Positions 16,849 to 56,885 of a DNA stretch of 64,000 bases are shown here, in pieces. The DNA lies in assembly GCF_006345805.1 (NCBI RefSeq), contig NC_043018.1, forward strand, positions 20,460,001-20,524,000, read 5' to 3'. Positions within the stretch are counted from its first letter, which is position 1. The number at the start of each line of letters is the position of its first letter. Made by a program: the position numbers and the translations under genes. The notes under the pieces are model-generated. The model saw only the letters and a program-made list of their open reading frames with translations. It was not told where the DNA came from and did not search any database. This stretch comes from Octopus sinensis (lineage: Eukaryota).

Positions 16849-17231
16849 CTAGCAGTATTGCCCGGCGTTGCTCGGGTTTGTAAGGGAAATAACTATATAA
16901 GCATTTTTAGAGATGTAAAGTATAATAGCCATCTCAATATGGCTAACCACAAAGGGCGGGGTGTTACCGTAGCTTTTTACGTTCTGAGATTTAATAATAC
17001 ATTTTTAGAGAGTTACTTCCCTTATATATGCCAAAAATGCATTAAAAATGGGAAAAATTGATGGTAAATTTTTTTTTAAATCGTAGATGCGCGCTAATAC
17101 CCAGAAGGGCTCGATATGAATCACGACTATAAGATACCCGGTTTTGGTTAAACTGCACCGCAAAATGTGGGAGTAGTTAGGAATCTAAATCGTAGGAGAC
17201 AGACACACAACTTCACTTTTATATATAAAGA
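16849..17231 (-). mobile_element. Non-autonomous Helitron (tandem unit 1)
   Basis: Same termini as 13159-13656. Confidence 0.88.
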
Positions 17232-19042: not shown

Positions 19043-19272
19043 TTAACCCTTTTGTCACCATATTTCTATTAAAAGACAGTGTCTTCATTTCAATTAATTT
19101 TGAAAATAACGAAGGATTTAGTAAAATAACTGTCATTATGAAGCTAATGTTTTGGAACCATAAATTAACATGGAATTCTGATGGAAAATTTTAAAATTTA
19201 GATTGCTTTGAAACGGAGTTTTGCCTCATAAAACTAGGGTCAGTCTCAAGTGGACCAGTATCAAAAGGGTTG
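19043..19272. mobile_element. piggyBac-like MITE
   Basis: TTAA-CCCTTTTG ... CAAAAGGG-TTGA termini; related copies near 5270-5495, 19272-20795 (interrupted) and 43377-43930. Confidence 0.7.
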
Positions 19273-19347
19273 ATCCTTTCATTACCCTATTTCTGTTCAA
19301 ATACGCTAGCTTCATTTCAATTAATTTTGAAAATAAAGAATTTATTA

Positions 19348-19608
19348 ATGTGGGGTATATTTGCCATTTCAATATGGCTAACCACTAAGGGTGGGTGTTA
19401 CTGTAGCTTGTAGCCCCAGGAGAACATCTCCTCCAGCTGGCTTTAGGCACACTTTCTGTGCCCTAAGGTATTTGCAAAAGGAGGACATCCTTCCCTCGTC
19501 AACCTAAGTGATACACACGGACGGCAGTTTCTAGGTATTGACCTGTCATCAGCGTACGACAGTCACCGGTTTTCGATGAAAGGGGTCCCAATGCAGGAAG
19601 AATTAATT
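19348..19608 (-). mobile_element. About 260-bp hammerhead-bearing retroelement (solo PLE pLTR or retrozyme-like)
   Basis: Splits a MITE; flanked by a 12-bp direct repeat AAGAATTTATTA (19336) / AAGAGTTTATTA (19609). Confidence 0.7.
19514..19558 (-). ncRNA. Type-I hammerhead ribozyme, canonical core
   Basis: Minus strand CGTACG CTGATGA C AGGT CAAT ACCT A GAAA C TGCC GTC CGTGTG: 6-bp stem I with GU pairs, stem II AGGT/ACCT, minimal stem III, GUC triplet. Confidence 0.8.
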
Positions 19609-20017
19609 AAGAGTTTATTAAAATAACTGTCATTAGTGAGCTGCCAGAATCGTTAGCACACGGGACAAAATGCTTAGCAGCATTTTATCTGTCTTTACAT
19701 TATGAGTTCAAAATCCACCAAGGTCGACTTTGCGTTTCATCTTTTCATGGCTGATGAAATAGGGACTAGTCAAGTACTGGGGTCAATGTAATCTACTTAG
19801 CCCCTCCCCTTAAATTTCAGGCCTTGTGCCTATGGTAGAAAAGATTATTAACCCCTTGGCATTAAGATTTCTTTGTTTTGAATTAATCACACAACATTGT
19901 GTAGCTTCAACATTTCAATGGTGTGTTTGTATGTTTTTAGAATGACATTGTAGGTTAAGTGTGAGAGGTTGGATATGGTCAGTTTTAACATAAAACAGAT
20001 AAAGTATTTAGGCCAGA

Positions 20018-54719: not shown

Positions 54720-56885
54720 GCTGTTTCTCGAAAATCAAGGTAAGTGGCTTTGTGCTGTGAGTAGGGCGTGTGAACATACGTGGGCTGTGGTTAGCTTGGA
54801 AGCAAGGTGACTTGCTCAACGATCTTAGGTCGCTTCATTAAGATGTGGCCGCCATTTGTGAAACAAGAATTTCCGGAAGGTATGCTCTAGCATGAATTTT
54901 CAAAGACTATGAGATATTCTCATCTTGTGGTCTTTTGGAACTGAGTGGCGGTGTAGCAGCGCTATCTCGAGAATCCTAAGATCTTCAAGTATGGGAAATC
55001 TTCTAGGACCCGGATGGTGAGGTGAATGGCGGCGAAGGTGGTGCCTTTGGACTGGTGGCCATTTATGCCCCGACAGGGGCTGGGAGGCCAGATTTTCCAG
55101 GCGTCTAGAAACATTTTGTAATCGTCTCACACTTTAATACTAGTGGGAGACTGGAATAGTATTTTGGATGCACGGAAGGACTGTATGGGTCTAGTACATA
55201 GTAAAAATGGATGTAAAAGCCTCAAAAACTTGCTCAAAAACGTTCAGTTGCCTGACAATTACCGACTAAATTTACTTGATGTGCCAGTGTGGACATTGAG
55301 CTAACACAACGAGTTATCCAGATAATACCTAGATAGAGAATTTGTTAGGTCAGAGGCTAGGGGTAGTGTAGGTTGTCCACAATTTAAATTGGTCAGTTGC
55401 TCAGACCACAAACTTGTGATATACGCTATCGATTTAGATAGGACCTATAGACAGTGATCCTGTTATTGGAAATTGAACGCGTCCTTACCGGCACGTAAAT
55501 GCTACAGGGACCCGATTAGCGAACTAGTCAAGCGGCATTTGATAGGGGAAATTGTCAACAACCAGTGGTGGATCGCCCTGAAGAGGACGATTAGTGTAGA
55601 ATCGATAGCGTTTAACAAAAGGCTAGGCATAGAATTAGATTAGAGGGAGAACTAGTTAGCTAACTAGAAGAGGAAATTACCAAAGGCATCGCGACCTGAC
55701 ATGCTAGCAATGAGAAAGGCTCTTGGACATTTCTTTAAGGCAAAACACTAGGGCTGCGTTGTCAGAGCTAAGGCCAGTGTTCTCAAACAGGAAGAAACTA
55801 AATGGTTAACGTGTGGAGGCTCCGTTTGTGAGGCATGTCTTTCTGCAGCTCGTCTCTTCGACGGAACTGCAGTCCTGGGTGAAGGATAAACCGAGACAAG
55901 GCATCTATCACCTAGAATGTCGTCCGGTGCTCAGTCCTCTACCAGTCGGGAAATGGAATCGGCAGGTGTTCCATTTTAGCAATATATAGGAGATTACTGA
56001 CGCAGAAGTGCCTGAGCGTCGACGAATACGAACTGGCTAGTCTGTTGAAGAAGACTTTCCGATCAGGAACTATCATGATACTTTCCAGATGTCTTTGGCT
56101 TGGCACTGCTACTGGAGGTGGGGGGACCACCGGTTCGAGATAAGCTCCACAGACACGGATGTGCTGTCAGACTGGCTTGTCCGAGGTGCGCGCAGAGTAA
56201 CGAAACCGTTTTGTACGCACTCGTTCGGTGTCCGGGCACGGCTGCTTTGTGGAGCTATGTCGAACATCTGCTGTTGGTGTGGGACAGATCAGTCCATCAG
56301 CTGAGTCTATAGTAATGATTGCCCACCGCCTTCCTTTAATCGGACAATCAAGGTAGCTTTCCTTTGTCTGGTGGCGGTGGCAAAAGAAGTTGTCTGGTGG
56401 AGAGGTTGAAAGGGCACGAGGACAGAGACATTTGGTAGATCCCTCATCAAGTTTTTCCAGTTTTACTTGAGAAAGGAAGTGAGGGTGAAGAGTGGGGTAC
56501 TGTCCTCGAATGAATTTGTTGAAAGCTGAGAGAAAGTTGCGAAAATGGCAAAAGTGTAGACCTATGAGTCGGAGAAAAGGAATTGGAGAGGAGACTTGCC
56601 CTTAGTGTTCAGGGAGATCTTGGATGGCAGGGTCCCTTGATTACCCCTAGAAGTCCTCCTGTATCAGGAGGTCCACATCACTATCATCCTTTTTTCCTTC
56701 TTCTTTTACTGTTGAATACCATGTATATTCCCTTCTTTGTTTTATTGTAAACCGCGTACACTTTCGTCTTCTTAAAAAAAAAAATCATTTCATTATATGT
56801 ACCTTCACCACTAAAACCACACACACACTTTACGTCTGTCATTGTATTTAACTCCATCACCCTGGTTGCTAATAAAAGAATTCAT
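54720..56885 (+). pseudogene. Decayed Tx1/L1-clade LINE ORF2 (APE endonuclease and C-terminal zinc finger; RT core missing) plus 3' UTR
   Basis: Frameshifted motifs VNIRGL, DVAAICETR, LVAIYAP, LILVGDWNSILD, YLDR, SDHKLV, YWKLNASL; later CPRC..SNETVLYALVRCP; AATAAAA at about 56870. Confidence 0.88.

What the first reader, a model, noticed from the sequence alone, without database searches (positions are those of the whole stretch)
19336..19620. Discrete 260-bp ORF-less hammerhead retroelement with a 12-bp target duplication
Seen: a MITE is split by an insert flanked by AAGA(A/G)TTTATTA, and the insert holds one canonical hammerhead (GUC) on the minus strand; the stem II closing pair is a C-A mismatch. 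Inference: a mobile unit in the size range of non-LTR retrozyme monomers or solo PLE pLTRs, possibly producing circular RNA from tandem copies elsewhere.
Basis: partly seen in the sequence, partly recalled or inferred. Interest (0 to 1): 0.75.

Follow-up and report, generated by a model that had tools for sequence, protein, structure and literature searches.

The report
Truncated hammerhead retrozyme with LINE parasite
This insert is a shortened, likely inactive copy of a small protein-free jumping repeat that carries a predicted self-cutting RNA and is likely pasted into the genome by a Penelope-type enzyme, while a second jumping gene inserts at one exact spot in this repeat family.

Summary
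Observation confirmed: 260 bp (19349-19608) split a piggyBac-type MITE between 13-bp duplications and carry one type I hammerhead (minus strand, predicted cut 19520/19519). But 260 bp is not the unit: 247 bp are a 5'-truncated copy of a ~354-bp non-coding repeat (618 exact 3'-motif and 253 exact core matches in the genome), plus 13 bp of target-like filler. The family shows Penelope-type insertion anatomy (fixed 3' end, optional ~45-nt tail, inverted arms, partial tandems, 10-15-bp duplications), no adjoining ORF in 160 loci, and a few tandem arrays with intact ribozymes: a non-LTR retrozyme. The C-A mismatch is family-wide. This copy lacks the predicted snRNA-type promoter box, has one ribozyme and a broken dimerisation palindrome, so it is probably dead. 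A Tx1-like LINE ended at one site of this family, or its equivalent in related targets, in 30 of 30 fetched copies, 58 nt below a box shared with U2 genes. Cleavage, circles and the mobilising enzyme are untested. This scan already reported such retrozymes in this genome and the LINE targeting on other DNA.

The parts
19349..19595 (-). 5'-truncated copy (unit positions ~105-352 of ~354) of a non-coding hammerhead retrozyme family; element 3' end at 19349
   Evidence: 39 other loci match it at 93-96% over query 2-250; mapping to the L007 monomer; 7 private substitutions against 29 close copies
19507..19567 (-). type I hammerhead: distal helix I (19567-19562 with 19512-19507), helix I (19557-19553 with 19519-19515), core CTGATGA 19552-19546, C.A mismatch 19545/19532, helix II 4 bp, GAAA 19531-19528, 2-bp helix III with loop 19526-19523, predicted cut 19520/19519
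   Evidence: pair counts on 16 hand-picked copies: 90.2% of cells paired, 15 cells with double changes, 0/500 shuffles as high
19523..19523 (-). private A-to-C change that breaks the helix III palindrome predicted to be needed for dimer cleavage
   Evidence: 29 of 29 close copies have A; self-duplex -1.7 versus -11.1 kcal/mol
19564..19577 (-). empty target site of the Tx1-like LINE (13-bp duplication when occupied); ATCG at 19577 is the predicted transcription start
   Evidence: transcription start is inferred, not shown
19336..19348 (+). left copy of the 13-bp target-site duplication
   Evidence: empty-site sequence from host copies
19609..19621 (+). right copy of the target-site duplication (one mismatch), followed by the continuation of the host MITE
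19596..19608 (+). 13-nt filler at the element's 5' junction; GG plus a further imperfect copy of the target sequence (19598-19610 matches the left duplication 12/13)
19274..19335 (+). left part of the interrupted piggyBac-type MITE (second of two head-to-tail copies)
19622..19643 (+). right remnant of the interrupted MITE, cut off by another repeat at ~19640
19043..19273 (+). uninterrupted neighbouring copy of the same MITE with TTAA/TTGA flanks; shows the empty site

Best explanation
The insert is a 5'-truncated, likely dead copy of a ~354-bp non-coding hammerhead repeat (non-LTR retrozyme) that was likely written into an AT-rich MITE by the reverse transcriptase and GIY-YIG nuclease of a Penelope-like element acting in trans. 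Shown: the family is multi-copy and ORF-less, has conserved and covarying hammerheads, fixed 3' ends with an optional ~45-nt tail, variable 5' ends, inverted arms, partial and full tandems, and 10-15-bp target duplications. Inferred cycle: RNA polymerase II starts at an snRNA-type promoter inside the unit (ATCAGT box 58 nt above an ATCG start, as in U2 genes) and reads into the next unit; two hammerheads dimerise through the helix III palindrome and cut out a unit-length RNA that contains the promoter; this RNA circularises (or stays an uncut multimer) and the borrowed enzyme copies it from one of two start points ~45 nt apart, reading through the cut site, so only copies longer than one unit can be transcribed and processed again. 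The window copy stopped after 247 nt, so it lacks the promoter box and a second ribozyme, and has since lost its palindrome. Separately, a Tx1-like LINE inserts at the predicted start site of this family.
For: Copy number: 253 core and 618 3'-motif exact matches, controls 0. Unit ~354 bp, circularly permuted. In 73 loci chosen only by the 3' motif: 105 of 116 arms end at the unit end (57) or 38-52 nt beyond (48); 39 loci are inverted and 31 of these 39 have the tail on exactly one arm; 44 of 116 arms read through the cut site and 1 of 116 5' ends lies within 5 nt of it. These are the Penelope features described in PMC8557442 (passages). Duplications of 10 bp or more in 31 of 37 non-simple flank pairs (114 loci tested, 77 with simple-sequence flanks dropped; shuffled mean 2.2). 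An array of 5.4 units with five identical intact cores. Covariation in helix II, C3-G8/U3-A8 and the loop III palindrome. Two full units fold as circles at z -3.4 and -2.7. No Penelope ORF adjoining in 160 loci, while RT/GIY-YIG elements are abundant in the genome. ATCAGT at -57 to -61 in 19 of 20 U2 loci and 60 of 71 family copies; an snRNA-type promoter is reported for newt satellite 2 (cited in PMC2220036, passage).
Against: No autonomous partner was identified: the unit has no similarity to the 3' ends of the 30 GIY-YIG loci fetched of 150 scored (the one match, in L087, is a separate insertion upstream). Most copies are below two units and only 9 of 29 unselected segments keep an intact core. 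A single circular template is not proven: two passes within one insertion are 94.6% alike at the median versus 91.5% to other loci, but they beat the best other locus in only 11 of 39 direct and 8 of 45 inverted cases; the five array units are 98-99.7% alike yet only 94% like their own inverted arm, which points to later local amplification or assembly collapse; L245 joins two units only 84% alike. An ungapped U2-promoter matrix did not score the unit above background; the promoter call rests on one hexamer at a fixed distance. No cleavage, transcript end or circle was observed.
Confidence: 0.8

Rival explanations
1. The copies are solo pseudo-LTRs or 5'-truncated ends of an autonomous Penelope-like element, so the unit moves in cis as part of a coding element.
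For: Insertion anatomy is that of Penelope elements; minimal dimer-type hammerheads are typical of pLTRs (PMC4209133, parts 1-2 of 4 read).
Against: Long copies run into another unit, not an ORF (18 of 116 arms cross the junction by more than 60 nt); 2 of 160 loci have a Penelope protein hit, both more than 1 kb away; of 73 distinct 5' flanks only one pair shares sequence. The only long inserts between direct repeats were the Tx1-like LINE.
Confidence: 0.08
2. The Tx1-like LINE is the autonomous partner and the hammerhead unit is its terminal repeat or 3' transduction.
For: 26 of 30 LINE 3' ends are followed directly by this family, and full copies look like a LINE between direct repeats.
Against: LINE bodies are 91-99% alike while the flanking units are 75-94% like the reference and include a different hammerhead-like repeat; the 13-bp duplication carries the same subfamily variant on both sides (L192, L196, L205, L207, L208), so the LINE entered pre-existing copies; free copies have AT-rich targets, tails and inverted arms unlike the LINE junctions.
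Confidence: 0.04
3. The element spreads from linear, uncut multimeric transcripts of tandem source arrays; the hammerhead is weak or rarely used and no circle is part of the cycle.
For: Read-through of the cut site fits an uncut template as well as a circle; heterodimer L245 and array homogenisation; 8 of 9 Xenopus retrozyme dimers did not cleave in vitro (bioRxiv 10.64898/2026.07.22.740005, parts 1-3 of 5 read).
Against: The core, helices and palindrome are conserved with compensatory changes across subfamilies down to ~70% identity, which implies selection for function; related mussel retrozymes of 350-390 nt accumulate as circles (PMC7229834 section 14).
Confidence: 0.2
4. Chance motif inside an ordinary repeat, or an assembly artefact.
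For: Rfam gives no hammerhead hit; the isolated motif does not fold better than shuffles (z -0.2 to -1.5).
Against: 253 exact cores versus 0 control, covariation, the family present in runs labelled as four organisms.
Confidence: 0.01

Closest known systems
Metazoan non-LTR retrozymes (coral, Mytilus, axolotl; PMC7229834, sections 13-14 and passages read; vertebrate survey bioRxiv 10.64898/2026.07.22.740005, parts 1-3 of 5 read)
   Same: Non-coding 354-bp unit with GC ~43%, type I hammerhead with 2-bp helix III and tetraloop, monomers to multimers, duplications longer than 4 bp, self-paired circular fold; a mismatch at the base of helix II as in axolotl HHR_Amex2 (U.U there).
   Different: Mostly dispersed sub-dimer copies with explicit Penelope insertion footprints (tail on one arm, inverted arms); C.A closing mismatch; snRNA-type box; has its own site-specific LINE. 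Circles and cleavage not shown here.
Penelope-like element pLTRs with minimal hammerheads (PMC4209133 parts 1-2 of 4; PMC8557442 passages)
   Same: 5' truncation, partial tandems, inverted 5' copies, tail at one end, AT-rich or microsatellite targets, palindromic helix III, U3-A8 variant in some subfamilies.
   Different: No ORF; tail 38-52 nt rather than the 30-40 described; no autonomous element with this repeat found.
Newt satellite 2 (snRNA-type promoter; seen only as cited in PMC2220036, passage; the original paper was not held)
   Same: Hammerhead repeat of similar size with an internal snRNA-type promoter (predicted here).
   Different: Promoter here rests on one shared hexamer at a fixed distance; not assayed.
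Target-specific Tx1-clade LINEs: Tx1L (in Tx1D), Keno (U2 snRNA), Tx1-Mar, Kibi, Koshi (PMC4494074, passages and section 15)
   Same: Two-ORF LINE with CCHC ORF1, AP endonuclease, RT and zf-RVT that inserts at one site in a multicopy sequence, sometimes in tandem.
   Different: Target is a hammerhead retrozyme at its predicted transcription start; not found in my searches, though the paper lists unnamed 'satellite' targets that I could not inspect.

Membership tests
Type I hammerhead ribozyme | Core CUGANGA, GAAA, NUH and three helices with helix I open | tested here: met
Type I hammerhead ribozyme | Watson-Crick pair closing helix II | tested here: not met
   C.A in 66 of 77 pattern-matching copies, G-C in 4; followed by a 4-bp covarying helix; mismatched bases here are reported for axolotl HHR_Amex2
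Type I hammerhead ribozyme | Self-cleavage after GUC | not testable with these tools
   needs in vitro transcription
Non-LTR retrozyme | Non-coding unit of 150-450 bp, GC below 50% | tested here: met
   354 bp, GC 0.43; no ORF of 100 aa or more overlaps the insert
Non-LTR retrozyme | Tandem copies with at least two complete hammerheads somewhere in the genome | tested here: met
   5.4-unit array with five intact cores and two pattern-matching cores in L244, L245, L251, L252, L270, among 30 loci fetched of 40 scored; the window copy itself has one
Non-LTR retrozyme | Target duplications longer than 4 bp, no LTR structure | tested here: met
   10-15 bp in 31 of 37 non-simple flank pairs
Non-LTR retrozyme | Expression as unit-length linear and circular RNA | not testable with these tools
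   only contigs of runs not on record as RNA were available
Penelope-like element (autonomous) | RT plus GIY-YIG ORF flanked by the repeat | tested here: not met
   0 of 160 loci with an adjoining ORF; loci reach 0.7-1.5 kb on each side
Penelope-like element (insertion mode) | 5' truncation, partial tandems, inverted 5' copy, tail at one end only | tested here: met
   39 of 73 inverted, 31 of 39 with one tailed arm
piggyBac-type MITE (host) | Short terminal inverted repeats starting CCC and TTAA flanks, non-coding | tested here: met
   the piggyBac label for these ends is recalled
Tx1-clade LINE (parasite) | CCHC ORF1 and AP endonuclease-RT-zinc finger ORF2, L1-related | tested here: met
   Pfam PF00098, PF03372, PF13966, weak PF00078; all 9 PDB hits are L1 ORF2p or L1 endonuclease variants
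Tx1-clade LINE (parasite) | RT phylogeny within Tx1 rather than another L1-group clade | not tested
   no named Tx1 reference protein came up
Tx1-clade LINE (parasite) | Target specificity (more than 20% of flanks one sequence type, criterion of PMC4494074) | tested here: met
   26 of 30 3' flanks this family, 2 another hammerhead-like repeat, 2 the duplication plus a sister LINE

The most novel reading that the evidence does not exclude
A three-tier parasite system: a Penelope enzyme spreads a promoter-carrying ribozyme circle, and Tx1-like LINEs insert exactly at that circle's snRNA-type transcription start (and sister LINEs at U2 starts), borrowing the upstream promoter and possibly using the hammerhead ~57 nt downstream to cut the 3' end of their read-through RNA.
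Probability: 0.5. Interest if true: 0.68.

Novelty: new member of a known kind. Interest (0 to 1): 0.45.

Why it matters
The window copy itself is an ordinary dead fragment. The family matters because its insertion footprints give direct sequence support to the proposed but unproven mobilisation of animal retrozymes by Penelope-like enzymes, and name concrete constructs (the intact array, the two priming points ~45 nt apart) for testing it. The site-specific LINE shows that a ribozyme repeat can serve as a safe-harbour target like U2 genes, and suggests that what such LINEs track is an snRNA-type transcription start. Both points were already noted by this scan on other DNA.

Tried and rejected
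Rfam gave no hammerhead match at either threshold. Single-sequence folding does not recover the hammerhead. Search for the autonomous partner: the Pfam family asked for first was not in the library; GIY-YIG gave 150 scored matches, 30 fetched, none with this unit at its 3' end. Two 5-kb inserts between direct repeats looked like an autonomous element but are a LINE inside one retrozyme copy. Expression: no RNA holder listed; contigs of three runs guessed to be RNA cover the unit but show no start, end or circle. Empty allele at the window locus: no joint across the insert among the joints shown for four runs, uninformative. A host-MITE pattern matched nothing because the motif was wrong; a DNA search replaced it. 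mis-oriented part of the host copies; one search is the corrected run. An ungapped promoter matrix failed, and the first count of the box in family copies returned 0 through a pattern error, corrected. A pile-up of 5' ends at the cut site was looked for and not found. One copy (L145) ends one base short of the cut site; n=1, not used. Single-circle templating could not be shown. The model was not used. Papers PMC85248 and PMC308520 were not held. Supplements of the bioRxiv paper and of the other papers were not read and could list octopus retrozymes or Tx1 targets.

Full report
Observation. Between AAGAATTTATTAA (19336-19348) and AAGAGTTTATTAA (19609-19621) lie 260 bp. The flanks belong to a ~225-bp repeat with CCCTTT/AAAGGG ends and TTAA flanks; an uninterrupted copy sits immediately to the left, and the majority sequence of 29 other copies is continuous across the site. 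The piggyBac label for such ends is recalled. The minus strand carries CTGATGA (19552), a C.A mismatch, a 4-bp helix II, GAAA, a 2-bp helix III and GUC with the predicted cut at 19520/19519. It is the only hit of a type I motif scan of the window. Rfam misses it. No frame of 100 aa or more overlaps it.

The unit is larger than the insert. A genome search gave 2936 candidates; the 40 scored match query 2-250 at 93-96% apart from the window itself. Family sequence therefore spans 19349-19595; 19596-19608 is a target-like filler not shared by other copies. Other copies continue 5' for ~105 nt and then repeat, which defines a circularly permuted ~354-bp unit. Exact motifs give 253 cores and 618 3' ends, with 0 for both reversed controls.

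The hammerhead is under selection in the family but damaged here. Helix II alternates between AGGT/ACCT (28) and GGGT/ACCC (18), the C.A mismatch occurs in 66 and the palindromic CTGCAG in 56 of the 77 segments that fit the pattern, out of 102 distinct ones. On 16 copies I picked across subfamilies, 90.2% of cells pair and 15 cells show double changes (0 of 500 shuffles), including C3-G8 to U3-A8 and palindrome swaps (related sequences can beat this control, and the count of pairs with double changes, 5, was matched by 54 of 500). Only 9 of 29 unselected segments keep an intact core. The window copy has 7 private substitutions, one of which breaks the palindrome (29 of 29 close copies differ; self-duplex -1.7 versus -11.1 kcal/mol). 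Such short helix III motifs are described as needing a second copy (PMC4209133).

Insertion anatomy is Penelope-like. In 73 loci chosen only by the 3' motif (all 89 listed matches on C1 and C2), 57 of 116 arms end at the unit end and 48 carry a 38-52-nt tail; 39 loci have an inverted arm and in 31 of them exactly one arm is tailed; 5' ends are scattered; 44 arms read through the cut site and 1 begins within 5 nt of it. Duplications of 10 bp or more flank 31 of 37 non-simple flank pairs against 2.2 in shuffled pairs; 77 of 114 pairs were set aside as simple sequence, many of them (TA)n. These are the features listed for Penelope-like elements in PMC8557442. The genome holds many RT/GIY-YIG elements, some with long open frames and (TA)n flanks, but none of 30 fetched carries this unit at its end and no such ORF adjoins 160 element loci. 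A search with a 2.3-unit copy found one array of 5.4 units with five identical intact cores and an inverted arm, and five further loci with two pattern-matching cores. This meets the architecture of non-LTR retrozymes (PMC7229834; bioRxiv 10.64898/2026.07.22.740005, which argues they derive from Penelope elements). Against a simple rolling-copy story: array units are 98-99.7% alike but 94% like their inverted arm, and passes within an insertion beat the best other locus in only 19 of 84 cases.

Predicted promoter. After seeing earlier scan notes that proposed this, I tested it: ATCAGT lies 57-61 nt above the ATCG start in 19 of 20 U2 loci fetched and above the ATCG of the unit in 60 of 71 copies; the hexamer occurs at 0.0002 per position in the window. 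An snRNA-type promoter is reported for newt satellite 2 (cited in PMC2220036). A broader ungapped matrix did not detect the unit. The window copy begins 18 nt above the ATCG and so lacks the box. With one ribozyme, no box and a broken palindrome it is most likely dead.

A LINE parasitises the family. Two copies contain the same ~5-kb element with a CCHC ORF1 and AP endonuclease, RT and zf-RVT domains. Its 3' end has 294 candidates; all 30 fetched of 40 scored stop at an equivalent site: 26 run into this family or its subfamilies, 2 into a different hammerhead-like repeat, 2 into the duplication and a sister LINE. Of 22 longer loci, 20 show the 5' junction: 17 retrozyme, 3 a sister LINE end. 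The 13-bp duplication carries the same subfamily variant on both sides in L192, L196, L205, L207 and L208, so these are insertions into existing copies. The twentieth U2 locus has the sister LINE's 3' end at its first base (92% over 358 nt). I found this before the look-up, but the scan had already reported it on other DNA. Searches for Tx1 with hammerhead, and for Tx1 targets, returned no paper describing it in their listings; an Octopus vulgaris repeat paper has no mention of ribozymes in its main text. Tx1 membership was not tested by phylogeny.

Verdict. A real, correctly spotted hammerhead insertion; a truncated, probably dead copy of a non-LTR retrozyme family that most likely borrows a Penelope enzyme (0.8). 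New member of a known kind; similar families were reported several times by this scan in this genome. The animal group (octopus-like) is my inference from repeat content and earlier notes, not a call result. Interest 0.45, carried by the family-level footprints and the site-specific LINE rather than by this copy.

Noticed in passing
L121 (G000:C2:75364500-75374400), L122, L161-L210: Tx1-like LINE family (294 candidates) inserting at one site of the retrozyme with a 13-bp duplication; a sister family (~80% alike in ORF2) stacks in tandem at the same site.
   Followed up: yes
L290 (G000:C3:19729889-19733082): Sister LINE 3' end placed exactly at the first base of a U2 snRNA gene; L275 and L285 have LINE-like sequence downstream of U2.
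   Followed up: partly
L176:1778-2000, L184:1779-2000: A different hammerhead-like repeat (core beginning CCGATG, GAAACATG) with the same ATCAGT box at -58 is also a LINE target.
   Followed up: partly
window 16850-17100: A ~56-bp inverted piece of the retrozyme 3' end plus a tail-like piece sits inside another element whose start looks Helitron-like (recalled); the same junction appears as loose ends in several runs, so it is probably a separate high-copy family.
   Followed up: partly
L067, L068, L077, L081, L083 (3' ends): Penelope-like elements with a CxxC linker and C-terminal GIY-YIG end in a degenerate hammerhead-like motif (TTGATAA...GAAACATG) followed by (TA)n; candidate but unproven partners.
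   Followed up: partly
L242/L243 (G000:C30:13628679-13630985): 5.4-unit array with five identical intact hammerheads and an inverted arm; best candidate source locus for bench tests.
   Followed up: partly
L270 (G000:C1318:31598-35229): Ten head-to-tail 50-bp copies of the LINE-target-plus-hammerhead-core segment form a minisatellite next to a dimer.
   Followed up: no
L145:1825: A 2.3-unit arm ends one base before the predicted cleavage site.
   Followed up: no
L014, L107, L139, L247, L249, L002: Several long arms start at unit positions 164-167, inside helix II, possibly a reverse-transcriptase stall.
   Followed up: no
window 55289-56111: Weak nucleotide similarity (67-70%) to the LINE body; an old related LINE remnant.
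   Followed up: no
L087:45-418: Sister retrozyme subfamily at ~69% identity with a CCCGGG palindrome and the same tail and inversion, inserted in (TA)n.
   Followed up: partly
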